Origin: Terriglobia bacterium
GTDB taxonomy: Bacteria; Acidobacteriota; Terriglobia; Bryobacterales; Bryobacteraceae
Assembly (NCBI GenBank): GCA_963846025.1
Contig: CAWJUG010000004.1
Location: forward strand, 250,065-314,064
Direction: 5' to 3'
Length of the DNA stretch: 64,000 bases
The first letter of the stretch is position 1. Each line of letters starts with the position of its first letter. The notes beneath the pieces were generated by a model. It ran no database searches. It was not told where the DNA came from and saw only the letters and a list, made by a program, of their open reading frames with translations. Positions 1-54,376 of this stretch are shown in pieces. The position numbers and the translations under genes are program-made.

Positions 1-523
1 GGATATCCGGATCGAACGCGTTGTAGATGGGGACGCAATCGCGCGCGCCTAGTTCGCGATATCGGTTCGTGACATTATCGCCGCCGCCGTACGTAAAGAC
101 AAGATGGAACTCAGGGAGGGCTGCGAGAAATGGATCGGCCGCATGTGCCGAAAGCCGGTCGAGAGTTGCCGGCGCGTCGACATCCCAAAAGATTTTGCAA
201 ACTGGCGGAAGCAATGAGGAAATGCGGGCTTCGAGAAACTCGTCCAGCACACCGACGCCGCTCGCTTTGACAACTACATCGGCGCGGGCGGAAGCCGCCA
301 GGTGACGATTCACCTCGCCCGTGTCTCCAGCGTCGTAGACGACGATACGAGCCCACTCCGGATCGGGAATGTCGCGATGCTGCTGACGGTCATAAGCATC
401 AGGCTCGTAGAAGGTAATCTGATGTCCTCGGTTGGCGAGTGCGCGAAGAATGCCGCGATAGTATGTGGCCGCGCCATTCCAGTAAGCGGAAACGAGACTG
501 GAGCCCCAGAAGGCGATCTTCAT
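1..523 (-). CDS. CgeB-type glycosyltransferase-like protein (N-terminal part only; gene runs off the left edge)
   Basis: Open minus-strand frame from ATG at 523-521 to the window edge (MKIAFWGSSLVSAYWNGAATYYRGILRALANRGHQITFYEPD...). It is paralogous to the N-terminus of the next gene. ATGA stop/start overlap with 520..1662. Absent from the ORF track because there is no stop in the window. Confidence 0.6.
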   Translation of the reverse strand, partial: MKIAFWGSSLVSAYWNGAATYYRGILRALANRGHQITFYEPDAYDRQQHRDIPDPEWARIVVYDAGDTGEVNRHLAASARADVVVKASGVGVLDEFLEARISSLLPPVCKIFWDVDAPATLDRLSAHAADPFLAALPEFHLVFTYGGGDNVTNRYRELGARDCVPIYNAFDPDI

Positions 524-1662
524 ATCTGGATTCCCTGCTGCAACGTCTCGAAAGCGCTCAAGGCCGGCGTGCTAAGGGTCGTGTAGATGCCGAGCAATTC
601 CTCTACCCGGTGCGCGCAGGTGTGACGTGCGCGAATGGTCTCAAGACCACTGGCAGCCAGACTCCTGGCAAGCGCGCCGTCATTCAACACATCGCGAATG
701 TGCCTCTCCATCTCTTCGCTATCTCGCGCCATCAGGAAGTCTTTACCAACGCGAAACAGACCCTCTTCGTCGCACCATGGCGCAGAAACAAGGGGAATCG
801 CACAGGCGAGCGCTTCGAAAGGTCGAATGGTCGGAATGCCGGGAAGCTCACGCGTATAGGGATGACGCGGCACGTGTACGGTGACTCGGAACTGCGCAAA
901 AACTTCAGGCACCTCAAAGTTAGGAAGCCAGCCGCCGTAGCGAATTCCGCATCGGCCTAATTCGTCGAGAGCGGCAGGGGGGTAACGCACACCGTATACC
1001 TGCGCATGCAACTTAAGATTCCGCACCGGCGTAAGGAAATATTCGCGCAACTCTTCGGTCCGCTCGTCATCACCCCAGTTGCCGATCCAAATAACGTCAC
1101 CTGCTCTTTGTGCCGGCTCTCGTGGATGAAAGACCCTAATGTCAGCGGCTTCATGCCATACGTGCACCTGACGCCCCCAACCGCGGCGTTCATAGGCGCG
1201 CTTCAAGGATGCGCCGTAGGCAAGCACGCCATCATATTCCGACAGATCGAAACGCGAGAGTTCCTGCTCAGCGGTTAAAGCCCGATGATGTGTGTCGTGA
1301 AAAAGCGCGGCGATGCCGTGGTGACAGCGGCGGTATCGGCCAATGGCCGCCACTACAGATGGCTCATTCCATTCATGGACAATAACAAGATCGACCCCGT
1401 CGAGAAACTGATCGAGATCCAGATGCTGCGGCGAATAACGGGTGCTAGCGAGACTCGGAAACGCGTGCTGGAACGCGGCAAGGGCCGCCGGTCCGCGATC
1501 TTCGAGCAGGTTCTGACGGCTCCACGAATTTTCAGGTTCAAAGATGCGAACCTCATGACCGCGAGCTTTCAGCTCAGACGCGATGCCACGAAGAAAATGC
1601 GCGTTGCCATGGTTCCAATCGGAAACCAGGGAATGGTAGAACATGGCGATCCGAAGCTTCAT
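520..1662 (-). CDS. CgeB-family glycosyltransferase-like protein
   Basis: 380-aa ORF (MKLRIAMFYHSLVSDWNHGNAHFLRGIASELKARGHEVRIFEPE...). ATGA overlaps at both ends (1659-1662 and 520-523). The family call is from recollection of CgeB/DUF3880-type proteins. Confidence 0.65.
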   Translation of the reverse strand: MKLRIAMFYHSLVSDWNHGNAHFLRGIASELKARGHEVRIFEPENSWSRQNLLEDRGPAALAAFQHAFPSLASTRYSPQHLDLDQFLDGVDLVIVHEWNEPSVVAAIGRYRRCHHGIAALFHDTHHRALTAEQELSRFDLSEYDGVLAYGASLKRAYERRGWGRQVHVWHEAADIRVFHPREPAQRAGDVIWIGNWGDDERTEELREYFLTPVRNLKLHAQVYGVRYPPAALDELGRCGIRYGGWLPNFEVPEVFAQFRVTVHVPRHPYTRELPGIPTIRPFEALACAIPLVSAPWCDEEGLFRVGKDFLMARDSEEMERHIRDVLNDGALARSLAASGLETIRARHTCAHRVEELLGIYTTLSTPALSAFETLQQGIQI

Positions 1663-2741
1663 GCTGCCGCGCCTTTCTGCGTTACGCGCTTGCCTGATTG
1701 GGAGAGAGATTCGTACAGGTCGTAGTACTGGTCAACAGTACTTCCGGACCAATAGCGAGTCGATTGAAGGCGGGCGAGATCGCCACGCGACCGGCGGGCT
1801 GTTTCGTTCTTCGCAAGCCAAGCAAGAGTGTGACTCCACCGATCGGGGTCACGCGGATCAACAAAGATAGCGGCGCCATCCCACAGTTCACGAAGGGAAG
1901 GAATATCGGAGAGAACCAGACAGCATTGGGCGCGAGCCGCCTCGAGAACCGCAAGGCCGAATGGCTCGTAGAGCGCGGGATGAACAAAAACGGATGCGCG
2001 CTGCATCTGCTGGAGCAAACTTTCGTGCGAGAGAGATCCTGCGATTTCAACGGGCCACGGCAAACCCGAAGTCGCGTCATCCAGCAGCTTTAAGTTCTTG
2101 CCCGTGTCCCAGACCCGCCCCGCGGCAAGGTAGAAAGGCTCCTTTTCGACGCCGTTGTATACAGGCGAGTCGCTAAAATTGTGAATCACGGTGACGCGCC
2201 CGGAAGGCAGACCATAATGATGTGTCAGAACGGCGGCCATAAACGCAGAGGGGGCGACGACGGCATCTGCAGCGCAAAGACCAGCGGTAACACGACGGTG
2301 ATATTCAGCCCATTCCGGCGGAGGCGTTGAATTGTGCACCGCTTGCCACCAGGAGTAAACACAGGAATGGGCAACGACCAGGACAGGGACTTCCCAAGGC
2401 AATGCGGCATGGGCGTAGCCGTTGAGATGAATAACGTCCGGCTGGAACTGCATGGCTAAATCGAGTAACCACGCACCCGCAGCTTCGACCTCAAGCCAAG
2501 GCTGCTGCATCCATTCGAGCTTGTAATCGCACTCGCGAAAAGTGACGCCCGCGAGAGCAGCGAGGCCCATTTTCTGCGCATCGCTGGGACGAGGACCCAT
2601 GGTTGCGAGTAAGACTTGCGCCCCACGGCTAGTCATGTGAGAGACGAGGTCGAGCGAATACTGCCATACACCACCTACGGCATCGGCAGTCATCAGGATT
2701 TTGAGGGGCGGGACGGCGCTATGCGCACCGCTATCGCACAT
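1659..2741 (-). CDS. glycosyltransferase family 4 (GT-B fold)
   Basis: 360-aa ORF. N-terminal KILMTADAVGGVWQY and C-terminal FVHPALYEPFGLAVLEAARAQCCLV (EX7E-like region) are typical of GT4. Overlaps the upstream radical SAM gene by 11 nt. Confidence 0.75.
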   Translation of the reverse strand: MCDSGAHSAVPPLKILMTADAVGGVWQYSLDLVSHMTSRGAQVLLATMGPRPSDAQKMGLAALAGVTFRECDYKLEWMQQPWLEVEAAGAWLLDLAMQFQPDVIHLNGYAHAALPWEVPVLVVAHSCVYSWWQAVHNSTPPPEWAEYHRRVTAGLCAADAVVAPSAFMAAVLTHHYGLPSGRVTVIHNFSDSPVYNGVEKEPFYLAAGRVWDTGKNLKLLDDATSGLPWPVEIAGSLSHESLLQQMQRASVFVHPALYEPFGLAVLEAARAQCCLVLSDIPSLRELWDGAAIFVDPRDPDRWSHTLAWLAKNETARRSRGDLARLQSTRYWSGSTVDQYYDLYESLSQSGKRVTQKGAAA

Positions 2742-4017
2742 GCGCGCTCACTTCCAACTCAACTAACCCTTGTGGACGCTGTTCCTGGATGTCGCTAAAT
2801 GAATCAAAACCTTTGAGGTATGCTTCGTGTGCGCGCTCCCAGGCGAAGTCGTCAGGCGGGCCCCACATGCGCGTATACTCGGGCGAGCCTGGATACGGAA
2901 ACAACGGAACAGGTTTATTGGCCCACACGCCATGCGATTCGAGCTTGACGCGCCAGGACTCCACTTCATCAGCATCGTCTTCCGTCATTGCGAGCAGATT
3001 TGCCTGGACGAAAGGAACAAGCTTTTTGGCGAAGACAAGCCGACCGGTGAGCTCCTCAGTCGACATTTTGCACTTTTTGTCAAGGTAAGCGCGGCCCGCT
3101 TCGGTTATGCTCTCGACACCGGCTTCAATCGACACGCAGCCGGCTCGTGCCAGCGCCGTTATAGCGTCTTCACTCCACAGGTCAAGGCGCGTTTGCACGC
3201 CGAGTTTTATCTCACGTTCTGCCAGCGCGGCAAGAAGCGCTAAATCGGGCAAGAAAATTTCGTCAATGAAGTAAACGTATTCGATCCCCTGCCGGATAAG
3301 TCCGTCCAGTTCTTGCAGGATTACTGGCAAAGGGCGCTTGCGATAGTTGTTGCGAAAATTGTCCTTGGCGCAAAACGTACAGTGGTAGGGACACCCGCGA
3401 GAGGCTTCCATTTCCGCGCCGGGCCCAAGCGGTTCGGCATCAAAGCGGTGATGATGATGCCGATGCTTTGCGATCAGCTTATCCGGCCACGCCAGCGCGG
3501 GAAGGCGCTTCATATCGGCAGCGCGATTGGGGCCCCGAATGATGATCTCATCTCCGCGCCTAAATGCAATCGATTGAACAGAGCCGATGTCACCGGCTAA
3601 TTGGGGCAAAACCTCTTCACACTCGCCAAGGACCACAAAATCGGCGTTTAGCTTGCGCAATGTCGCGCGGGGCGTTGTGGAGCCATGTGGACCAACGATG
3701 ATCTGCTTTGCAGGCACAGCGCGCAGCGCAGCCGAAAGCTCCTGCGGAACTCGCAACTCTGGAGGCGCACAGCGCCAGAAGAGATAGGTAGGCGCAGTAG
3801 TAATGACGATGAAATCGGGCGCATAGGCGGAAACCCGCTGTACGATATCGGGGTAGCCAAGATTATCGAGATGGCCGTCGATCAAGATCACATCATGCCC
3901 GTTCTGTTCGAGCAGCGCTTTCGAATATCCCAGTTCCAGAGCTAAATGAGGCTCGCGGCACCCAAAATAGATGCTGCCTTCAAACGTCCAAGGCGGGTTG
4001 ATCAACGCGTAGCGCAT
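2731..4017 (-). CDS. B12-binding domain / radical SAM protein (class B)
   Basis: CxxxCxxC cluster motif RGCPYHCTFCAK. N-terminal Rossmann-like cobalamin-binding region (MRYALINPPW...GHDVILIDGH...PDFIVITT). I chose the ATG at 4017, which shares one nt with the upstream stop (TGATG), rather than the ORF-track maximum at 4071. Confidence 0.85.
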   Translation of the reverse strand: MRYALINPPWTFEGSIYFGCREPHLALELGYSKALLEQNGHDVILIDGHLDNLGYPDIVQRVSAYAPDFIVITTAPTYLFWRCAPPELRVPQELSAALRAVPAKQIIVGPHGSTTPRATLRKLNADFVVLGECEEVLPQLAGDIGSVQSIAFRRGDEIIIRGPNRAADMKRLPALAWPDKLIAKHRHHHHRFDAEPLGPGAEMEASRGCPYHCTFCAKDNFRNNYRKRPLPVILQELDGLIRQGIEYVYFIDEIFLPDLALLAALAEREIKLGVQTRLDLWSEDAITALARAGCVSIEAGVESITEAGRAYLDKKCKMSTEELTGRLVFAKKLVPFVQANLLAMTEDDADEVESWRVKLESHGVWANKPVPLFPYPGSPEYTRMWGPPDDFAWERAHEAYLKGFDSFSDIQEQRPQGLVELEVSAHVR

Positions 4018-5072
4018 CAGGCGACCATCACTTTCGAGTGCTCGACCAGCGAAGGGCGTTCCAGATACCACTCATAAAGGGTCCGGATTCCTTCGCGAAC
4101 GCCGATTGCGGGAGACCAACGGAGCGTTCGACGGATTTTCGATGTATCCGAGACGTACCATTTCTGATCGCCCAAACGCTCGGGCCCCCAATCGATATCA
4201 ACCGGATTTCCGGTCAAGCTGCGGATCTCCCGAAGTAGTTCGATCAGACTTGTACTATTCGCCGGGCCACCTCCAACGTTGAACGGCTGTCCAGCAACAA
4301 TATCGATGCTTTGCTGTGCAAGGTGCATCGCGCGAACTAGATCGTCGACGAAGAGCAGGTCACGCACCTGCTTTCCGTCACCATAAATGGTGATTGGTTC
4401 GCCCTTCATGGCCTGACGGACAAAATGCGCCACCCATCCCTGATCCTCGGAACCAAGTTGATAACGGCCATAGATGCAACTCATCCGAAATACGGTGGCT
4501 TTGATGCCGTAAGAGCGCGCGTAATCGAGTACGTACTGATCCGCCGCTCCCTTTGAACAGCCATACGGCGAAAGAAAATCCAGAGATTGCTGCTCGCTTA
4601 TGCCCGAAGAAGCGAGGCTCGGCGCTTCCGGTTCCCAACGATTTCCCGTCTTCCGGAATGGAATTTCTGCGAGTTTGCCGTAGACCTTATTGGTTGATGT
4701 GAAGAGTAGGGATGGTCGCGAAGGAGAGCGTCTGATTGCCTCAAGCAGATTCAATGTCCCTGCAAGATTTGTTCGGAAGTCGTGAATCGGATCATCCAGG
4801 CTGGTGGTCACGGCCACCTGAGCGGCAAAATGATAGACCGCCTTGGCCGTATGAACAGCTTTGCGCAGTTCTTCGGCATCACTTACATCTGCCTGCGTAA
4901 AGGAGATGCGCCGAGCATATTGATCCTGCAACTCCGCCAGATTTTGGTCTACTCCAGGACGGCTCAGATTATCGAAGATATGGACGGCCTGATCTTTTTG
5001 TAAGTAGAAACGAGCAATGTTGGTGCCGATAAAACCAGCACCGCCGGTGATCAGTATGTAATCCCTCTGCAC
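4017..5072 (-). CDS. NAD-dependent epimerase/dehydratase (extended SDR; CDP-paratose 2-epimerase-like)
   Basis: ILITGGAGFIGTNIARFY Rossmann motif followed by FDNLSRPGVDQNL; YxxxK in PYGCSKGAAD. Start taken as GTG 5072-5070, preceded by GGGAG and lying after the upstream stop at 5083. The ORF-track start at 5168 would overlap the upstream gene by 86 nt. Confidence 0.8.
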   Translation of the reverse strand: MQRDYILITGGAGFIGTNIARFYLQKDQAVHIFDNLSRPGVDQNLAELQDQYARRISFTQADVSDAEELRKAVHTAKAVYHFAAQVAVTTSLDDPIHDFRTNLAGTLNLLEAIRRSPSRPSLLFTSTNKVYGKLAEIPFRKTGNRWEPEAPSLASSGISEQQSLDFLSPYGCSKGAADQYVLDYARSYGIKATVFRMSCIYGRYQLGSEDQGWVAHFVRQAMKGEPITIYGDGKQVRDLLFVDDLVRAMHLAQQSIDIVAGQPFNVGGGPANSTSLIELLREIRSLTGNPVDIDWGPERLGDQKWYVSDTSKIRRTLRWSPAIGVREGIRTLYEWYLERPSLVEHSKVMVA

Positions 5073-5082
5073 CCCTAGCTCC

Positions 5083-6201
5083 CTAGACCACGAGCCCGCG
5101 CGACGACAGTTCTTCGCGCATCTCGTTGAAGCGATCGTGAGCAGTCTGTTGATCGAGCCAGCCAGCAAGATCGCGCATGCCGCTATCTAGATTGATTTTC
5201 GGATTGTACCCGAGCACTTCCCTGGCGCGCGAAATGTCAGGGAAGCAATGGCGGATGTCCCCAACGCGATATTTGCCAGTGATTTCGGGTTCGATATCCT
5301 TCCCGAGAACGCGAGCTAATTTGCGAGCAACATCGCTAACTCTGATTTCTTGACCGCTGCCGACGTTGAATACCGCGTCACGCGCAGCATCGACTTCAAG
5401 AGCGAGCCGGCAGGCCTGCGCGACATCATAGACACTGACAAAATCGCGCAATTGCTCGCCATCTTCAAAAATCATCGGCCGTTTGCGATTGAGCAATCGC
5501 GACGCGAAGATGGCCAGCACGCCAGTATATGGATTGGACAAGGATTGAAACGGGCCATACGCATTGAAGAACCGCAACGCTATGGTGGGAATGCCGTAAG
5601 CGCGACCCACCACCAGACACATCTGCTCCTGATCGTATTTTGAAAGCGCGTAGACGGAAGCCAGCGAAGGCTGCTTGGATTCGGGCGTTGCGACAGGACG
5701 AAGCGGAGCGCCATCTGGCGTGACCATCTCCCACTCGCGCGCCTTGAGCTGCGCGGCGGTCCGGCTAGCGAATGGATACGCCTCGCCACGGGGGCCAACG
5801 TAGAGACCTTCGCCGTAGATGCTCATGCTCGAGGCCACGATCAATTTGCGCACGGAACTCTTGACGATCCGCTCGAGCAAGGCCGCAGTGCCCAGGTTAT
5901 TGACGCTGGTATACTCGGCGATCTGATACATGCTTTGGCCGACGCCGACCAAGGCGACGAAATGGTAGACCGCTTCGACACCTTTTAGCGCTTGGTCCAG
6001 GATCTCCGGATTTCGAACATCTCCCAAAACGAATTCAACGTGTCTGTTCAAATACCCGGGACGCTCCGGATTATCGCCGTGTACCTGCGTCACCAGGCTA
6101 TCGAGAACTCTTACGTGATATCCAGCTTGCAATAACTCCGTTGCTACATGAGAACCGATGAAGCCAGCACCGCCTGTGATAAGAACGGTTCTTCTTTTCA
6201 T
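5083..6201 (-). CDS. NAD-dependent epimerase/dehydratase (extended SDR, UDP-sugar 4-epimerase-like)
   Basis: MKRRTVLITGGAGFIGSHVA Rossmann motif; YALSKYDQE catalytic YxxxK. Start set at the ATG giving MKRRTV (6201) rather than the ORF maximum 6252. Confidence 0.8.
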   Translation of the reverse strand: MKRRTVLITGGAGFIGSHVATELLQAGYHVRVLDSLVTQVHGDNPERPGYLNRHVEFVLGDVRNPEILDQALKGVEAVYHFVALVGVGQSMYQIAEYTSVNNLGTAALLERIVKSSVRKLIVASSMSIYGEGLYVGPRGEAYPFASRTAAQLKAREWEMVTPDGAPLRPVATPESKQPSLASVYALSKYDQEQMCLVVGRAYGIPTIALRFFNAYGPFQSLSNPYTGVLAIFASRLLNRKRPMIFEDGEQLRDFVSVYDVAQACRLALEVDAARDAVFNVGSGQEIRVSDVARKLARVLGKDIEPEITGKYRVGDIRHCFPDISRAREVLGYNPKINLDSGMRDLAGWLDQQTAHDRFNEMREELSSRGLVV

Positions 6202-6389
6202 TCGTGTCTGTGTGTCCTTTGAAGAGAATGCATAAGGCTCGTGGACCCGCAAAATCTACGAGTCCTTCACTCGATAGGCGGAAAGCCAGTCGCCTCATCA
6301 ACATAGAAAGCTTTGTAGCTCGGTTTGTTACTACTTACCTTTGTTGATGATGAACTTCACGCGTATAACTACGCGGAAACCAGGGGGTT

Positions 6390-7298
6390 TTACTTAGAGT
6401 ACCGGCGCGTCATCTCGGAGCAGAAGTCCGCATACTCGGCGGGATTTACGGGGGGACTTGTGTGATGCGCGCGAACGCCGCAATGCTCAGGAGTGAAACA
6501 GAAAGTAACCGTCAAATCGAACGCGTCGAGCAGACGCATCTGATGGTCAAACCACGACTCGGCGTTGGGCCGGAAGTGATCGGCCCAACTCAATCCAGTG
6601 CGAAGTTTACGCACTCCAAGCTCGTGCAGGTTTTGCACTGCGGCTTCGAGGCGAGGATCTTCGAAATGGAACCATTGACAAATGCCCAGGCCAGGAGCGA
6701 ACTGCGAAAATTGCCGTGCCGCCAATTTCGCGGTCCCGTCTTCGCGAAAGAGCCCCATGTAAAAGTGGCGGTAATAAGAAGATCCTTCGCTCTCCCGGTG
6801 GCGTGTGGTTGCCGGCCAAGCGCGGGGCAAATCAAAAAGACTGTACCAGTAGACGTGATCGGCACGAGGAAGTAATAGTTCGGCAGTGCGCTTGAGCCCG
6901 AACTCTTGCACTTCCTCGGCTCCGAAGGAAGAAGCGCCTACTTCCGATATCCAGATGGGCTTGTCGGTGGCGGCTTGCGCTTCCGCTAACTTGTCGGGCC
7001 ATTCGTTGATGGTCCAATGGTTCCAGTCGAGCGGAAACCCGTGAACAGCGACTACATCAACGTGATCCAAAGCGCCGAGATCACGCATGCGCGTAATGAA
7101 TGACGGATCAATCGGCGAGATGCCGCCCAGAACGCGTTTCAGCCTTGGATTTTCCGCGTGCACTGCCTGTCCCGCAAGCTTGACCATTTCGGCATAAACG
7201 GACCAGTCTCTATCTATCTCGAAATCCCAATGCGAGAGATTGTTCGGCTCATTCCAGAGCATGACGGCTTCAATCATAGGTGGATACGATGGCGGCAA
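6390..7298 (-). CDS. clan GH-A (beta/alpha)8 glycoside hydrolase-like protein with apparently permuted segment order
   Basis: WNEPNN (acid/base region) at residues 15-20 and WISEVG (nucleophile region) at 116-121. The C-terminal 100 aa resemble strands beta1-beta3 of the same fold. Start is TTG 7298 or ATG 7277. Confidence 0.65.
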   Translation of the reverse strand: MPPSYPPMIEAVMLWNEPNNLSHWDFEIDRDWSVYAEMVKLAGQAVHAENPRLKRVLGGISPIDPSFITRMRDLGALDHVDVVAVHGFPLDWNHWTINEWPDKLAEAQAATDKPIWISEVGASSFGAEEVQEFGLKRTAELLLPRADHVYWYSLFDLPRAWPATTRHRESEGSSYYRHFYMGLFREDGTAKLAARQFSQFAPGLGICQWFHFEDPRLEAAVQNLHELGVRKLRTGLSWADHFRPNAESWFDHQMRLLDAFDLTVTFCFTPEHCGVRAHHTSPPVNPAEYADFCSEMTRRYSK

Positions 7299-7313
7299 TA
7301 GTGATGAACTGAT

Positions 7314-8066
7314 TCAAGCCAGCGCCACAGGGATTGGATGCAGGTAAGCGCCTTCGTCGCACCTGCAAATGAATACTTCGGGTTCAGGAATGCTGTCTAC
7401 TCGAAAACCCGCGCTGCGCAGCACTGCTTCGGCGCAGGCGCGATTCGGAATCCACCAGTTGGTCGGATCCTGCGAATAGCTGTGTTCAACGAAGTGCATT
7501 CTCGGAAAACCCGGCTTGTCAAAAACGGCCTGCTCCCAGAACGGATAATCCTGCTCGACAGCAGGGCGAGTACGACTTCCGCGCAGCATCGATTGAAAAA
7601 CGAACCAATCCTTTGCTACATGCTGGCGAAGGAGATCGAGCGCGAGCAACGGATATCGCAGGTGGTAAAACACTCCCATGAACAAAACCAGATCGAAACG
7701 CTCACGAAGTCTCGGAACATCATAGACGGACATCTGCCGGAATTCGATGTCCATGCCTAGCACCCCGGCCGCGAAACGGGCTTGCGCGAGGTATGCCTCA
7801 TCATGATCGATGCCGAGAACGCGCTTCGCGCCCCGGCGTTTCATCTCGATGGAGTAGAACCCGCCATTACACCCGACGTCCAGAACAGTCAATCCAGTGA
7901 GATCAGTGGGAAGCGCGGCACGAAAGTTTTGCCATTTGGTGGCTGGATAATCACCTAAGAAGTGTTCTGGCGCGGTTTGGACACCTTGTAAGTTGAGGTT
8001 GTGAAACCATGGACCTAGTTCTGAAACTTTCTGCTCAATTTCCGGGACGGTCAGGCTGTTTGCCAA
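7314..8066 (-). CDS. class I SAM-dependent methyltransferase (DUF1698/CmoB-like)
   Basis: GPWFHNLNLQG...FLGDYPATKW...VLDVGCNGGFYSIEMKRRGAKRVLGIDHD (motif I). First gene of the minus-strand cassette. Confidence 0.8.
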   Translation of the reverse strand: MANSLTVPEIEQKVSELGPWFHNLNLQGVQTAPEHFLGDYPATKWQNFRAALPTDLTGLTVLDVGCNGGFYSIEMKRRGAKRVLGIDHDEAYLAQARFAAGVLGMDIEFRQMSVYDVPRLRERFDLVLFMGVFYHLRYPLLALDLLRQHVAKDWFVFQSMLRGSRTRPAVEQDYPFWEQAVFDKPGFPRMHFVEHSYSQDPTNWWIPNRACAEAVLRSAGFRVDSIPEPEVFICRCDEGAYLHPIPVALA

Positions 8067-8124: not shown

Positions 8125-8727
8125 ATGATTCGTATTCTACTGATCCGCCATGGGCATACCGAATTGTTGGGCAAAGTGTTGTATGGAAGGATGGCGGGAG
8201 TTCATCTCAGCGAGCGCGGGAAACAGGAAACAATCAGACTTGCTAGTCAATTGCGGGAGCGATATCGAATAGACGAGATTGTTTCGAGCCCGATGGACCG
8301 GGCCAAGGAGACTGCCGAGGCGATATCGGGCGCCGAAGGGCAACACATTGTATTCGACGAGGGACTGCAGGAGTTGGATTTCGGTGAGTGGTTGGGCAAG
8401 CCCTTTGCGGAACTTACGTCAGACGAACGTTGGAAGGTCTACAACCGCCATCGCTCGCTGAATAGTGCTCCCGGCGGCGAATTCATGCTGCAGGTACAAC
8501 TTCGGGCGTGGGCTGCTCTGGAACGCGCAATCGCTCGGCACAGCGGTAAACGGGAAGCAACAATCGCCGTAGTGAGCCATGGAGACGTAGTACGGGGATT
8601 ACTCATGCTGTTCCTAGGTATTCCGTTGGATTACATACATAGGCTCGAGGCGGGTACGGCATCAGTAAGCGAAGTCATCCTGGGTGGCGCATACCCGCAA
8701 GTGATCACAATGAATCAGACCTTTTGA
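8125..8727 (+). CDS. histidine phosphatase family protein (phosphoglycerate mutase-like)
   Basis: LIRHGHTE (RHG motif) at the N-terminus and a second catalytic His in VVSHGDVVRG. Confidence 0.8.
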   Translation: MIRILLIRHGHTELLGKVLYGRMAGVHLSERGKQETIRLASQLRERYRIDEIVSSPMDRAKETAEAISGAEGQHIVFDEGLQELDFGEWLGKPFAELTSDERWKVYNRHRSLNSAPGGEFMLQVQLRAWAALERAIARHSGKREATIAVVSHGDVVRGLLMLFLGIPLDYIHRLEAGTASVSEVILGGAYPQVITMNQTF

Positions 8728-8734
8728 GCTGCAC

Positions 8735-10228
8735 ATGTTAAGCGAAAATACCGACGCACGCCGGAAATACCTTCTAGATCTGCTGGTTTCTCAGCTCAGG
8801 GAATTTGTGGTAGTGGTCGCCGATATAGACGGAAGCTTTTTATCCTGGCACCCTGGAGTGCTGCAGCAATTCGGCTACGAGGCAGGCGAATTTATCGGTA
8901 AGCCGGTAGCGATGCTGTTTCCTGAGCCGGATCGAACGGCCGGCGACCCTGAACGCGAACTGGATACCGCGGCTGGTATCGGGAAGGCTTCCGATACGCG
9001 ATGGCTGGTAAACAAAGAGGGCCAGCGGTTGCTAGTTGAAGGCGTAAGCCTGGGACTCCGAGACGAAGCCGGCAATCTCGCCGGTTTTGGCAAAGTAATG
9101 CACGACGTGACGCAGCGCCGCGCCACGGAAGAGCGCTTGAAGGCGCTGACAAGGGCTCTGGAACATTCAACCGTGTTCATCCGGCAGCTCGACGGAACCA
9201 TTACGCACTGGACCGTAGGTTGCGAACGTCTCTACGGATGGACAGCGAGCGAGGCAATAGGAGTGACTTCCTGGAACCTCTTGAAGACGTTTTTCCCGCA
9301 GCCGCTTGACGGAATCGAAGAGCAACTTCTACGGAGCGGGTTTTGGCAGGGGGAACTGGGACAAGTGCGGCGAGATGGCACTTCTGTCTACGTATCGGCG
9401 GACTGGGTGTTGTTATCAGACGCCGGAGGAGAGCCGTCCAGCATCATCTGCACGCATACCGACATCACCTCACGACTGCAGGTCCAGGGGGAATTGGAGG
9501 TTGCCAACGCTCAACTGGAGAGAATGACGCTGGAGTTGGAGCGATCAAACAAAGAACTCGAAGAGTTTGCACGGATCGCTTCGCATGATCTGAGTGCTCC
9601 CATTACCAGCACGCGGTGGCTTGTGGATCTGCTACGGACAAAATACGGCAACAACCTCAACGATGACGGCCAGAAGGTTTTGAGCCAAATTACTGCTGGG
9701 CTGCAGCGGATGAGCGAACTTGTAGATGCCGTATTGGAGCACGCCCAGGTGGGAACCACTCCAATCGGATCTTTGGAGGGTTCAGATGCAGGCGCCGCGC
9801 TCAAAGCCGCGATCGAGGACCTGCGAAAAGACGTAGAAACATCGGGCGCGAGAATTTCTTATGGGCCGCTACCGGCAGTAAAAGTGACCACACAAGCGTT
9901 AACTCAGTTGTTCCAAAACCTGCTTTCAAACGCTATTAAGTACGGGAAGCCGGATACACCGCCCGAAGTGACCGTGAGCGCGAAACGTACAAAAGACGAT
10001 TGGACAATCAGTGTCACTGATAACGGCGTTGGTATTGAAGCCGATTGGCTTGAGCGCATTTTTCAGCCGATGCAAAGGCGGCACGGACTCGAAATCGCGG
10101 GCAGTGGTATCGGCTTAGCAACATGCAGAAAGATCGTCACTCGGGCTGGTGGAAAGATCTGGGCCGAATCCGTGGTTAGCAAGGGATCGACTTTTCATTT
10201 CACTGCTCCTGCAGCGAAGGCAGAATAG
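8735..10228 (+). CDS. PAS-domain sensor histidine kinase
   Basis: Two PAS-like segments, an H-box (FARIASHDLSAPI), an N-box (LLSNAIKYG) and G-boxes (DNGVGI, GSGIGLATC). Confidence 0.85.
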   Translation: MLSENTDARRKYLLDLLVSQLREFVVVVADIDGSFLSWHPGVLQQFGYEAGEFIGKPVAMLFPEPDRTAGDPERELDTAAGIGKASDTRWLVNKEGQRLLVEGVSLGLRDEAGNLAGFGKVMHDVTQRRATEERLKALTRALEHSTVFIRQLDGTITHWTVGCERLYGWTASEAIGVTSWNLLKTFFPQPLDGIEEQLLRSGFWQGELGQVRRDGTSVYVSADWVLLSDAGGEPSSIICTHTDITSRLQVQGELEVANAQLERMTLELERSNKELEEFARIASHDLSAPITSTRWLVDLLRTKYGNNLNDDGQKVLSQITAGLQRMSELVDAVLEHAQVGTTPIGSLEGSDAGAALKAAIEDLRKDVETSGARISYGPLPAVKVTTQALTQLFQNLLSNAIKYGKPDTPPEVTVSAKRTKDDWTISVTDNGVGIEADWLERIFQPMQRRHGLEIAGSGIGLATCRKIVTRAGGKIWAESVVSKGSTFHFTAPAAKAE

Positions 10229-54200: not shown

Positions 54201-54303
54201 TGATTAACGGCGCCGCTCGCGTGTGGCACGGGCATGCGCATCTCTTCCAGTATGCAGGACGCCTGTTCTTCCCAAAGCGAGTTGTAAATTGCCGATTAAT
54301 TCG

Positions 54304-54376
54304 TGGGCCCTGAAGGATTTGAACCTTCGACCAAAGGATTATGAGTCCTCTGCTCTAACCGCTGAGCTAAGGGCCC
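54304..54376 (-). tRNA. tRNA with anticodon CAT (likely tRNA-Ile2, lysidine-modified; alternatively elongator Met)
   Basis: Manual cloverleaf: acceptor GGGCCCT/AGGGCCC, D-arm GCTC-AGCGGTTA-GAGC, anticodon arm GAGGA-CTCATAA-TCCTT, T-arm GAAGG-TTCAAAT-CCTTC, discriminator A. CCA is not encoded. Confidence 0.85.

What the first reader, a model, noticed from the sequence alone, without database searches (positions are those of the whole stretch)
6390..7298. Clan GH-A hydrolase that looks circularly permuted (beta4-beta8 followed by beta1-beta3)
In (beta/alpha)8 clan GH-A enzymes (GH5/GH39 and relatives), the acid/base Glu sits in an N-E-P motif at the end of strand beta4. That is normally about 130-170 residues from the N-terminus. 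The nucleophile Glu is on beta7.

In this protein the order differs:
- WNEPNN is at residues 15-20.
- WISEVG is at residues 116-121.
- The usual C-terminal elements (VYWYSLFD, FGL-type MGLFREDGTAKLAARQF) end near residue 200.
- Residues 204-300 (GICQWFHFED...LHELGVRKLRTGLSWADH...WFDHQMRLLDAFDLTVTFCFTPEH...PAEYADFCSEMTRRYS) then look like the beta1-beta3 segment that canonically precedes the NEP motif.

The natural continuation of ...YADFCSEMTRRY would be ...IEAVMLWNEPN, which is the N-terminus of this same protein. Only 15 nt separate the gene from the upstream methyltransferase, so no N-terminal exon-like piece is missing nearby.
Basis: partly seen in the sequence, partly recalled or inferred. 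Interest (0 to 1): 0.65.

Follow-up and report, generated by a model that had tools for sequence, protein, structure and literature searches.

The report
Circularly permuted clan GH-A glycosidase
This gene encodes a sugar-cleaving TIM-barrel enzyme whose chain starts at barrel strand 4 and ends with strands 1-3, a natural circular permutation that is conserved in thousands of soil-bacterial sequences and that I did not find described for this enzyme clan.

Summary
The ORF at 6390..7298 (-), whose true start is probably the ATG at 7277 (295 aa), carries the acid/base NEP motif at its extreme N-terminus and the nucleophile Glu about 100 residues later.

Its last ~100 residues match the first ~100 residues (beta1-alpha3) of normally ordered relatives (hhalign E 5e-37). 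Its first ~195 residues match their residues ~120-315 (E 2e-39). Re-joining the two halves gives an end-to-end alignment with those relatives, with no gap at the junction. That alignment hits PslG (GH39) over its full length (E 2.5e-14).

AlphaFold2 predicts one domain with eight beta-alpha units (pTM 0.85).

All 80 best genome loci, from more than ten phyla, carry the permuted order. A TIGR04290 methyltransferase usually lies directly upstream, and its stop codon often overlaps the hydrolase start codon.

Normally ordered relatives sit in orthologous cassettes (two epimerases, GT4 transferases, methyltransferase). The permutation therefore arose inside a conserved glycan-biosynthesis cluster, apparently once.

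No assembly artefact and no independent C-terminal domain is involved. Substrate and activity remain untested. I found no literature on a permuted clan GH-A barrel; the closest precedent is GH70 versus GH13.

The parts
6390..7277 (-). Probable true coding sequence of the permuted glycosidase (295 aa plus stop). The mechanical ORF extends to the TTG at 7298.
   Evidence: ORF list. P0001 is 295 aa and 100% identical, and all top homologues are 294-298 aa. In 80 genome loci the gene starts at (M/V/L)IEAV(M/K)LWNEPNN, often overlapping the methyltransferase stop.
6696..7277 (-). Segment corresponding to beta4-alpha4 through beta8-alpha8 of a canonical barrel (residues 8-201 in 302-aa numbering).
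   Evidence: phmmer maps q8-194 to target ~111-295 of canonical relatives. hhalign maps 5-196 to 118-319 with E 2.3e-39. Pfam PF11790 matches residues 9-155 to profile 66-208/237. The AF2 model has strands E2-9, E47-50, E75-79, E108-113 and E142-145.
7245..7253 (-). N16-E17-P18, with the presumed acid/base Glu17 (Glu10 of the 295-aa protein) at the end of the first strand, which corresponds to canonical beta4.
   Evidence: Invariant in permuted and canonical relatives. It aligns with the WNEPN of PslG, chain position 139. With the chain offset of 26 this is E165, which is mutated in the inactive variant E165Q/E276Q.
6942..6944 (-). Glu119 (Glu112 of the 295-aa protein), the presumed nucleophile on the strand corresponding to canonical beta7 (WISEVG).
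   Evidence: Invariant. It aligns with PslG chain E250, which is E276 with the same offset of 26.
6684..6704 (-). Junction QFAPGLG (residues 199-205), where the old C-terminus (end of alpha8) is joined directly to the old N-terminus (start of beta1).
   Evidence: Re-permuted alignment. AF2 places helix H185-193 and then strand E197-200 in 295-aa numbering. Canonical relatives have their free termini here.
6393..6695 (-). Segment corresponding to beta1-alpha1-beta2-alpha2-beta3-alpha3 (residues 202-302), placed at the C-terminus.
   Evidence: phmmer maps q204-300 to target ~10-108. hhalign maps the C-part to P0216 19-120 with E 5.4e-37 and probability 99.9. AF2 gives E197-200, H210-220, E224-230, H239-249, E254-261 and H279-293, mostly at pLDDT 85-96. 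tblastn gives 40-45% identity to canonical loci.
6600..6602 (-). Arg233 (LRTG), an invariant Arg on the strand corresponding to beta2. It shows that the C-terminal segment carries conserved barrel residues.
   Evidence: It is invariant column R31 of alignment A2, which contains permuted and canonical sequences.
7314..8066 (-). TIGR04290-family SAM methyltransferase, the first gene of the cassette, directly upstream of the glycosidase.
   Evidence: NCBIfam TIGR04290, 384 bits against a cutoff of 300. It lies directly upstream on the same strand in 66 of 80 loci, and its stop overlaps the glycosidase start in 41 of these.
5083..6252 (-). NAD-dependent sugar epimerase/dehydratase 1 of the cassette.
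   Evidence: Pfam PF01370 and PF16363. Orthologues at 55-61% identity lie next to canonical-order hydrolases.
4017..5168 (-). NAD-dependent sugar epimerase/dehydratase 2. The true start is probably downstream of the TTG at 5168.
   Evidence: Pfam PF16363 and PF01370 match from residue 38. Orthologues at 54-57% identity occur in canonical cassettes.
2731..4071 (-). TIGR04295 B12-binding radical SAM protein.
   Evidence: NCBIfam TIGR04295, 689 bits against a cutoff of 400. It is present in 24 of 80 permuted loci and in none of 5 canonical loci.
520..2741 (-). Two glycosyltransferases: GT4 at 1659..2741 and a Glyco_trans_1_2-type gene at 520..1662.
   Evidence: Pfam. Orthologues at 44-58% identity occur in canonical cassettes.

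Best explanation
**What it is.** The gene encodes a small, signal-peptide-less and therefore presumably cytoplasmic clan GH-A glycosidase of the PslG/GH39-like type. Its (beta/alpha)8 barrel is circularly permuted.

**Chain order.**
- The chain begins at canonical strand beta4, so the acid/base Glu in the N-E-P motif is residue 10 of the mature 295-aa protein.
- It runs through beta7 (nucleophile Glu112) to a shortened alpha8.
- A 3-6 residue linker then leads into beta1-alpha1-beta2-alpha2-beta3-alpha3.
- The chain ends exactly where normally ordered relatives enter beta4.

The new termini lie in the alpha3-to-beta4 loop. The old termini are fused. Both sites lie on the face of a TIM barrel opposite the active site, so the catalytic face should be unchanged (inference from TIM-barrel topology).

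**Shown here.**
- The non-collinear homology.
- The conserved catalytic residues.
- A predicted single closed domain.
- Conservation of the permuted order in many phyla.
- Normally ordered orthologues in the same kind of gene cassette.

**Inferred.**
- The enzyme is an active retaining glycosidase or transglycosidase.
- It trims or recycles the methylated oligo- or polysaccharide made by its cassette (methyltransferase, two nucleotide-sugar epimerase/dehydratases, two GT4-type transferases, and a B12 radical SAM enzyme in some lineages). PslG and other hydrolases encoded in glycan-synthesis clusters act this way.
- The permutation arose once, by tandem duplication, in-frame fusion and loss of both outer parts.
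For: **Non-collinear homology.**
- 23 of the 150 listed representatives have q~200-300 before q~8-195 in one chain. Examples are P0171 (q204-300 to t10-108, and q8-194 to t111-295) and P0216.
- hhalign gives E 2.3e-39 for the N-part and E 5.4e-37 for the C-part.

**Re-permutation.**
- MAFFT of the re-permuted sequences with canonical ones leaves no gap at the junction..EMTRRYSK|MIEAVMLWNEPNN against ..TMLSRFGHLFDVVELWNEPNN.
- The joint profile hits PslG at 19-330 with E 2.5e-14, followed by GH1, GH39, GH5_18 and GH30.
- The single re-permuted sequence hits PslG across the junction with E 0.008, whereas the native order does not.

**Fold.**
- The AF2 model has pTM 0.85 and pLDDT 81, with eight strand-helix units that map one to one onto those of the canonical P0216 model (pTM 0.90).
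- The canonical model hits PslG (TM 0.74, E 7e-18) and 410 other chains, with clan GH-A families at the top. The permuted model gets only 5 weak sequential hits, as expected for a permutant.

**Catalytic residues.** The NEP Glu and the beta7 Glu are invariant. They align with PslG E165 and E276.

**Reality and spread.**
- At least 8000 homologues exist, about 295 aa long.
- 80 of 80 genome loci are permuted, including the finished genomes of Sorangium cellulosum So ce56 and Archangium minus.
- The start codon is fixed by overlap with the methyltransferase stop in 41 loci.

**Same cassette with canonical order.** L002, L083, L084 and L085 carry orthologous epimerases, transferases and methyltransferase at 44-61% identity.

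**Single origin.** One bipartition separates permuted from canonical sequences in a neighbour-joining tree.
Against: - There is no experimental structure or activity.
- I had no model coordinates. Closure of the barrel between beta3 and beta4 rests on the predicted secondary-structure order and on pTM, not on measured contacts.
- Three loops near the catalytic face are modelled with pLDDT below 50 (residues 10-19, 82-86 and 154-168).
- A barrel formed between two chains by segment swapping is not excluded.
- No duplication intermediate was found, so the route to the permutation is inferred only by analogy with GH70.
- The tree is a quick neighbour-joining tree without support values, and the separating branch is short (0.06).
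- Substrate, anomeric specificity and the product of the cassette are unknown. No exporter or polymerase gene was seen next to the cassette.
Confidence: 0.9

Rival explanations
1. The chain is permuted as described, but the functional barrel is assembled between subunits. Strands 1-3 of one chain would complete strands 4-8 of another, giving a segment-swapped dimer or oligomer rather than a closed monomer.
For: The alpha8-to-beta1 linker is very short, 3-6 residues. Only a monomer was modelled, and no coordinates were available to check contacts.
Against: AF2 gives a confident single-chain domain (pTM 0.85), with pLDDT 85-96 for most of the C-terminal segment. In TIM barrels the end of alpha8 and the start of beta1 are neighbours, so a short linker suffices (established topology).
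Confidence: 0.07
2. The protein is an N-terminally truncated hydrolase remnant fused to an unrelated C-terminal domain, so it is not a true permutation.
For: Pfam detects only a partial match to the glycosyl hydrolase catalytic core (residues 9-155). It finds nothing in the last 100 residues taken alone.
Against: The last 100 residues match beta1-alpha3 of canonical relatives with E 5.4e-37 and probability 99.9%, and at 40-45% identity by tblastn. They carry the invariant beta2 Arg. The re-permuted sequence aligns with PslG over its full length.
Confidence: 0.01
3. The order is an assembly, rearrangement or frameshift artefact of this contig, or the gene is a pseudogene.
For: Several 50%-identity representatives from high-GC metagenomes are visibly frameshifted chimeras, for example P0122, P0131, P0133 and P0167.
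Against: The same 294-298 aa architecture occurs in at least 8000 clustered proteins. It occurs in 80 of 80 independent genome loci, including complete chromosomes. Catalytic residues are invariant, and the start codon is conserved.
Confidence: 0.01
4. The permuted protein has lost hydrolase activity. It would serve as a sugar-binding or scaffolding subunit of the methyltransferase encoded just upstream.
For: The methyltransferase and hydrolase genes are tightly coupled, with stop-start overlap in 41 of 66 loci. No activity data exist.
Against: Both catalytic Glu, the NEP motif and the beta2 Arg, beta6 His and beta8 Trp positions are invariant or nearly so across permuted and canonical forms. 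This argues for a retained active site.
Confidence: 0.08

Closest known systems
PslG of Pseudomonas aeruginosa (CAZy GH39; PDB 4zn2, 5bx9)
   Same: It is the best solved relative: profile E 2.5e-14 over chain 19-330, and Foldseek TM 0.74 with E 7e-18 for the canonical-order orthologue. It is a clan GH-A barrel, and both catalytic Glu align (E165 and E276). It is also a hydrolase encoded inside a glycan-biosynthesis gene cluster.
   Different: PslG has the normal beta1-to-beta8 order. About 85 extra C-terminal residues are not matched here. From memory, it has an N-terminal membrane anchor and acts outside the cytoplasm. Identity is only about 20%. Pfam's GH39 model does not hit the window protein.
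Canonical-order orthologues (unnamed family, e.g. P0216, P0171, P0296, P0353). JGI labels them 'CDP-paratose 2-epimerase'.
   Same: They share 31-45% identity in both halves and the same invariant residues. They sit in the same cassette of two epimerases, GT4 transferases and a Methyltransf_9-type methyltransferase. They likewise lack a signal peptide.
   Different: They have the normal order, at 305-360 aa. They are often fused at the C-terminus to an NAD-dependent epimerase, giving 587-691 aa. None of the five sampled loci has the B12 radical SAM gene. Three have ADH_zinc and GFO/IDH/MocA oxidoreductase genes instead.
GH70 glucansucrases versus GH13 alpha-amylases (clan GH-H)
   Same: This is the classic natural circular permutation of a glycoside hydrolase (beta/alpha)8 barrel. 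The order is alpha3-beta4-...-beta8-alpha8-beta1-alpha1-beta2-alpha2-beta3 (PMC4919382). The break point is one element away from the one here, which lies between alpha3 and beta4. Non-permuted members (GtfC) exist in the same family. The origin is explained by permutation-by-duplication.
   Different: It belongs to a different clan, with an Asp nucleophile, alpha-glucan chemistry and large multidomain secreted enzymes. It has no sequence relationship to the protein here.
Pfam PF11790 Glyco_hydro_cc (the catalytic core found in CAZy GH128 beta-1,3-glucanases, from memory)
   Same: It is the only Pfam model above its gathering score: 24.7 bits against 21. The match covers the beta4-beta7 region. 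A GH128 structure (6uax) appears among the Foldseek hits.
   Different: The match is partial (profile 66-208 of 237). It barely extends in the re-permuted sequence (53-208). PslG, GH39 and GH1 are closer by profile and by fold.
MmpH, the hydrolase of the mycobacterial methylmannose polysaccharide cluster
   Same: The analogy is functional only. MmpH is a cytoplasmic hydrolase encoded with a GT4 transferase and methyltransferases, and it recycles an intracellular methylated polysaccharide (PMC9883506).
   Different: MmpH is an (alpha/alpha)6 barrel related to GH15 and GH125, so it is not homologous.

Membership tests
Clan GH-A glycoside hydrolases | (beta/alpha)8 barrel catalytic domain | tested here: met
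   The AF2 model (pTM 0.85) has eight strand-helix units. The canonical orthologue model hits PslG, GH39, GH2, GH1, GH5, GH10 and GH53 over its full length. This rests on prediction, not on a solved structure.
Clan GH-A glycoside hydrolases | Acid/base Glu in an Asn-Glu-Pro motif at the end of strand beta4 | tested here: met
   N16-E17-P18 is invariant. It aligns with the WNEPN of PslG, that is E165.
Clan GH-A glycoside hydrolases | Nucleophile Glu at the end of strand beta7 | tested here: met
   E119 in WISEVG is invariant. It aligns with PslG E276.
Clan GH-A glycoside hydrolases | Strands in the order beta1 to beta8 along the chain | tested here: not met
   The order is beta4-beta8 followed by beta1-beta3. 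This is the point of the finding. The protein is homologous to the clan but topologically permuted.
Clan GH-A glycoside hydrolases | Retaining double-displacement hydrolysis | not testable with these tools
   This needs an enzyme assay and product stereochemistry.
CAZy family GH39 (PslG, beta-xylosidases) | Significant sequence similarity to family members over the catalytic domain | tested here: inconclusive
   The joint profile hits PslG with E 2.5e-14 and GH39 xylosidases with E 3e-6 to 5e-4, but it hits GH1 enzymes at similar levels. Pfam PF01229 does not match the window protein. Identity to PslG is about 20%.
CAZy family GH39 (PslG, beta-xylosidases) | Additional C-terminal domain following the barrel | tested here: not met
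   The protein is 295 aa and consists of the barrel only. PslG residues after ~330 of 416 are unmatched.
Pfam PF11790 Glyco_hydro_cc | Score above the gathering threshold | tested here: met
   24.7 bits against 21, but only profile positions 66-208 of 237 are matched. The re-permuted sequence scores 27.5 bits over positions 53-208.
Naturally circularly permuted protein pair | The N-part of A is homologous to the C-part of B and vice versa, and the termini of A map to adjacent positions in B | tested here: met
   q204-300 maps to t10-108 and q8-194 maps to t111-295 in P0171, with the same pattern in 22 more representatives. hhalign confirms both halves. The re-permuted alignment has no gap at the junction.
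TIGR04290 / TIGR04295 cassette | Neighbouring genes score above the curated cut-offs of both models | tested here: met
   TIGR04290 scores 384 bits against 300, and TIGR04295 scores 689 bits against 400. The methyltransferase is adjacent in 66 of 80 loci and the radical SAM gene is present in 24 of 80.

The most novel reading that the evidence does not exclude
The permuted proteins would be the first natural circular permutants of a clan GH-A barrel and would merit a CAZy family or subfamily of their own. Together with the translationally coupled TIGR04290 methyltransferase, and in some lineages a B12 radical SAM enzyme and a conserved histidine phosphatase, they would make and recycle a so far undescribed intracellular methylated oligo- or polysaccharide that is widespread in soil bacteria. 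The permutation would have been fixed because the new N-terminus at beta4 allows coupling to, or complex formation with, the methyltransferase.
Probability: 0.25. Interest if true: 0.75.

Novelty: new variant of a known kind. Interest (0 to 1): 0.62.

Why it matters
Natural circular permutations of TIM barrels are rare. The textbook case among glycosidases is GH70 versus GH13.

Here the same kind of event, with a break point one structural element away, is found in the other large glycosidase clan. It occurs in a protein family with thousands of members across more than ten bacterial phyla. Current family models recognise this family only in part, and annotation calls it 'beta-xylosidase' or 'hypothetical protein'.

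Permuted and normally ordered orthologues sit in the same gene cassette. The pair is therefore a clean natural system for asking how a permutation arises and becomes fixed, and what it costs in folding and stability.

The finding also explains why sequence and fold searches under-annotate these proteins. It flags a conserved and uncharacterised glycan-modification cassette in Acidobacteriota, Myxococcota, Bacteroidota and other phyla.

Tried and rejected
1. **Foldseek of the native-order model against the PDB.** It gave only generic TIM barrels in shifted register and ~200-column partial GH2 matches. This is uninformative alone. It became useful only next to the canonical-order control.
2. **Methyltransferase-hydrolase fusion or stop-codon readthrough.** The two ORFs share a frame in the window, which suggested this. 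It was rejected because most loci differ in frame or have 1-16 nt stop-start overlaps.
3. **Long in-frame stretches upstream of the hydrolase.** These occur in L020, L027, L039 and L056 and were checked as possible N-terminal extensions or duplication intermediates. They are Arg/Pro/Gly-rich out-of-frame translations typical of high-GC DNA.
4. **Long representatives P0122, P0131 and P0133 (468-505 aa).** They looked like fusions but are frameshifted chimeric gene calls.
5. **MmpH of the mycobacterial methylmannose polysaccharide cluster.** It was considered as a homologue but is an (alpha/alpha)6 barrel, so it serves only as an analogy.
6. **Literature searches.** I searched for circular permutation together with clan GH-A, GH39, GH5, GH128 and PslG, and for TIGR04290 and TIGR04295. 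Nothing relevant turned up. The library lacks most subscription journals, so absence there is not proof.
7. **Duplication intermediates.** No beta1-3/beta4-8/beta1-3 or tandem form appeared among the 150 listed representatives. The remaining ~1400 hits were not visible.
8. **NCBIfam.** It has no model for the hydrolase.
Full report
**1. The observation**

The minus-strand ORF 6390..7298 (302 aa from a TTG) is present as described. Motif positions agree with the finding: WNEPNN at 15-20, WISEVG at 116-121, VYWYSLFD at 149-156 and MGLFREDGTAKLAARQF at 181-197.

The upstream ORF 7314..8066 is a TIGR04290-family methyltransferase (384 bits against a cutoff of 300). Its stop lies 15 nt before the TTG. 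All homologues are 294-298 aa and begin at MIEAV.... The real start is therefore almost certainly the ATG at 7277, which gives 295 aa.

The two ORFs share a reading frame in this window. In 80 related loci the frames usually differ or the stop and start codons overlap. This is coincidence, not a fusion.

**2. Family signals in the native order**

- Pfam sees only a partial match: PF11790, residues 9-155 against profile positions 66-208 of 237, at 24.7 bits. It also gives a weak GH53 match to the same middle part of the barrel.
- A PDB sequence search gives only a GH53 galactanase at E 0.03, query 10-120 against chain 184-293.

**3. The decisive test: non-collinear homology**

A search of 1.84 billion 50%-identity representatives gave 1532 hits. 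Re-scoring the 150 listed hits gave three groups:

| Group | Count |
|---|---|
| A single match spanning the junction (same order as the window) | 55 |
| Canonical order | 23 |
| Fragments | 72 |

In the canonical group, query ~200-300 matches target ~5-120 and query ~8-195 matches target ~110-310 of the same chain. For example, in P0171 q204-300 maps to t10-108 and q8-194 maps to t111-295. The termini of the window protein thus map to adjacent positions in these relatives.

Profile-profile comparison confirms both halves:
- The N-part against canonical profile positions 118-319, E 2.3e-39.
- The C-part against P0216 19-120, E 5.4e-37, probability 99.9%.

**4. Re-permutation**

I joined residues 203-302 to residues 8-202 and aligned the result with canonical relatives. 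The alignment runs end to end with no gap at the artificial junction..EMTRRYSK|MIEAVMLWNEPNN against ..TMLSRFGHLFDVVELWNEPNN.

The single re-permuted sequence hits PslG across the junction at E 0.008, which the native order does not. A profile of re-permuted plus canonical sequences hits PslG chain 19-330 with E 2.5e-14. GH1, GH39, GH5_18 and GH30 enzymes follow.

The two invariant Glu align with PslG chain positions 139 and 250. With a constant offset of 26 these are E165 and E276, the residues mutated in the inactive variant used by Baker et al. (PMC4928890). The offset is my inference.

Other invariant positions include the Arg of LRTG on beta2, which lies in the C-terminal segment, and the His of VHGFP on beta6. 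The Trp of YWYSL on beta8 is nearly invariant.

**5. Predicted structure**

AlphaFold2 with 36 sequences gives pLDDT 81 and pTM 0.85. The elements, in 295-aa numbering, are:

| Predicted elements | Canonical equivalent |
|---|---|
| E2-9 / H26-42 | beta4 / alpha4 |
| E47-50 / H58-72 | beta5 / alpha5 |
| E75-79 / H90-102 | beta6 / alpha6 |
| E108-113 / H121-135 | beta7 / alpha7 |
| E142-145 / H185-193 | beta8 / alpha8 |
| E197-200 / H210-220 | beta1 / alpha1 |
| E224-230 / H239-249 | beta2 / alpha2 |
| E254-261 / H279-293 | beta3 / alpha3 |

These eight units map one to one onto those of the canonical orthologue P0216 (pLDDT 90.6, pTM 0.90).

As a control, I ran Foldseek on the canonical model. 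It finds PslG (TM 0.74, E 7e-18), then GH39, GH2, GH1, GH5, GH10 and GH53 over the full length, with 410 hits at E<=1e-3. The permuted model gets only 5 such hits. They are generic TIM barrels in shifted register or ~200-column pieces of GH2. A sequential aligner is expected to behave this way with a permutant.

I had no coordinates. Strand pairing between beta3 and beta4 is therefore inferred, not measured.

**6. Not an artefact, and widespread**

The best 120 are all 294-298 aa, some from contigs of up to 5.6 Mb.
- A scan of one genome per species found 569 relatives. The best 80 loci all carry the N-part immediately followed by the C-part in one ORF, at 67-86% identity.
- These 80 loci come from Acidobacteriota, Myxococcota (including Sorangium cellulosum So ce56, Archangium and Myxococcus), Gemmatimonadota, Verrucomicrobiota, Planctomycetota, Nitrospirota, Armatimonadota, Bacteroidota (Hymenobacter, Rufibacter), Rhodothermales, Desulfarculales, and Alpha- and Gammaproteobacteria.
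- The window itself is closest to Acidobacteriaceae MAGs.

**7. Gene context**

The window cassette on the minus strand contains, in order:
- the methyltransferase,
- the permuted hydrolase,
- two NAD-dependent sugar epimerase/dehydratases,
- a TIGR04295 B12 radical SAM protein,
- a GT4 glycosyltransferase,
- a Glyco_trans_1_2 glycosyltransferase.

The methyltransferase lies directly upstream in 66 of 80 loci. Its stop overlaps the hydrolase start by 1-16 nt in 41 of them, which fixes the start codon and suggests translational coupling. The radical SAM gene is present in 24 of 80 loci.

Canonical-order relatives sit in the orthologous cassette in four of the five loci sampled (L002, L083, L084, L085). 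Identities to the window genes are:

| Cassette gene | Identity |
|---|---|
| Epimerase 1 | 55-61% |
| Epimerase 2 | 54-57% |
| GT4 transferase | 44-50% |
| Second transferase | 55-58% |
| Methyltransferase | 48-52% |

In L083 the methyltransferase lies directly upstream of the canonical hydrolase. Many canonical relatives are fused to an epimerase, giving 587-691 aa.

The two orders are therefore orthologous parts of one pathway. A neighbour-joining tree of 36 re-permuted and 45 canonical sequences has one bipartition separating them. This is consistent with a single origin, but the tree carries no support values.

**8. Mechanism and function**

*Shown:* the permuted topology, the conserved catalytic dyad, the absence of any N-terminal extension or signal peptide, and membership of a glycan-biosynthesis cassette.

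*Inferred:*
- The enzyme is a cytoplasmic retaining glycosidase or transglycosidase.
- It trims or recycles the cassette's methylated glycan, by analogy with PslG and, functionally only, with MmpH (PMC9883506).
- The permutation arose by duplication, fusion and terminal loss, as proposed for GH70 (PMC4919382).
- The break in the alpha3-beta4 loop and the fusion of alpha8 to beta1 both lie on the non-catalytic face of a TIM barrel, so the active site is undisturbed. This follows from established topology.

**9. Comparison with what is known**

The closest precedent is GH70, whose order is alpha3-beta4...alpha8-beta1...beta3. The order here is beta4...alpha8-beta1...beta3-alpha3, so the break point lies one element away. 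It occurs in a different clan, with different chemistry and in a much smaller protein.

Searches of the paper library found no report of a permuted clan GH-A, GH39, GH5, GH128 or PslG barrel, and no paper naming TIGR04290 or TIGR04295. The library is incomplete, so novelty is probable, not proven.

**10. Verdict**

Both the observation and the interpretation are confirmed. This is a real, conserved and widespread circular permutant of a PslG-like clan GH-A glycosidase. It is a new variant of a known kind. Its function is inferred only from context.

Noticed in passing
window 8125..8727 (+): A histidine-phosphatase-superfamily gene lies divergent from the cassette (Pfam His_Phos_1; its best NCBIfam match is TIGR03848 MSMEG_4193, below cutoff). 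It recurs within 10 kb of the permuted hydrolase in about 37 of 80 loci from several phyla. It may belong to the pathway, for example by acting on a phosphorylated primer as GpgP does in mycobacterial MGLP synthesis. That comparison is from memory and from the title of PMC3240985.
   Followed up: partly
proteins P0272-P0387; P0213, P0229, P0244, P0246: Canonical-order hydrolase-only proteins carry the JGI name 'CDP-paratose 2-epimerase'. The likely cause is annotation transfer from hydrolase-epimerase fusion proteins of 587-691 aa. The permuted ones are called 'beta-xylosidase'.
   Followed up: partly
window 7277..7316 (-); loci L003-L082: In the window the methyltransferase and hydrolase ORFs are in one frame, separated by a TGA. 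In 41 other loci the stop and start overlap (ATGA-type, -1 to -16 nt), which suggests translational coupling of the pair.
   Followed up: yes
window 4017..5168 (-) and 2731..4071 (-): The mechanical ORF starts are probably too far upstream. The domain matches begin at residue 38 of the second epimerase and at residue 20 of the radical SAM protein. Met19 of the radical SAM protein would overlap the epimerase stop by one base.
   Followed up: partly
loci L015-L082: The permuted hydrolase is 67-74% identical between Acidobacteriota and distant phyla (Myxococcota, Bacteroidota, Verrucomicrobiota, Proteobacteria). The adjacent methyltransferase is 60-69% identical. This suggests horizontal spread of the pair or very strong constraint.
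   Followed up: partly
loci L003-L085: The cassette is modular. The B12 radical SAM gene accompanies the permuted hydrolase in 24 of 80 loci. Three of the five canonical-order loci instead have ADH_zinc and GFO/IDH/MocA oxidoreductase genes and extra Glyco_trans_1_2 copies.
   Followed up: partly
proteins P0122, P0131, P0133, P0167: Several 50%-identity cluster representatives are frameshifted or chimeric gene calls from high-GC metagenome contigs. They contain Arg/Pro/Ala-rich stretches interrupting good homology. Lengths and 'fusions' in that library need checking case by case.
   Followed up: partly
window 54303..54376 (-): A tRNA-Met (CAT) is the only RNA gene detected in the 64-kb window.
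   Followed up: no
window 8735..10228 (+): A 497-aa ORF directly after the phosphatase looks like a PAS-domain sensor histidine kinase, with an H-box-like ASHDLSAPI and a C-terminal ATPase-like region. This comes from reading the translation. No family search was run.
   Followed up: no
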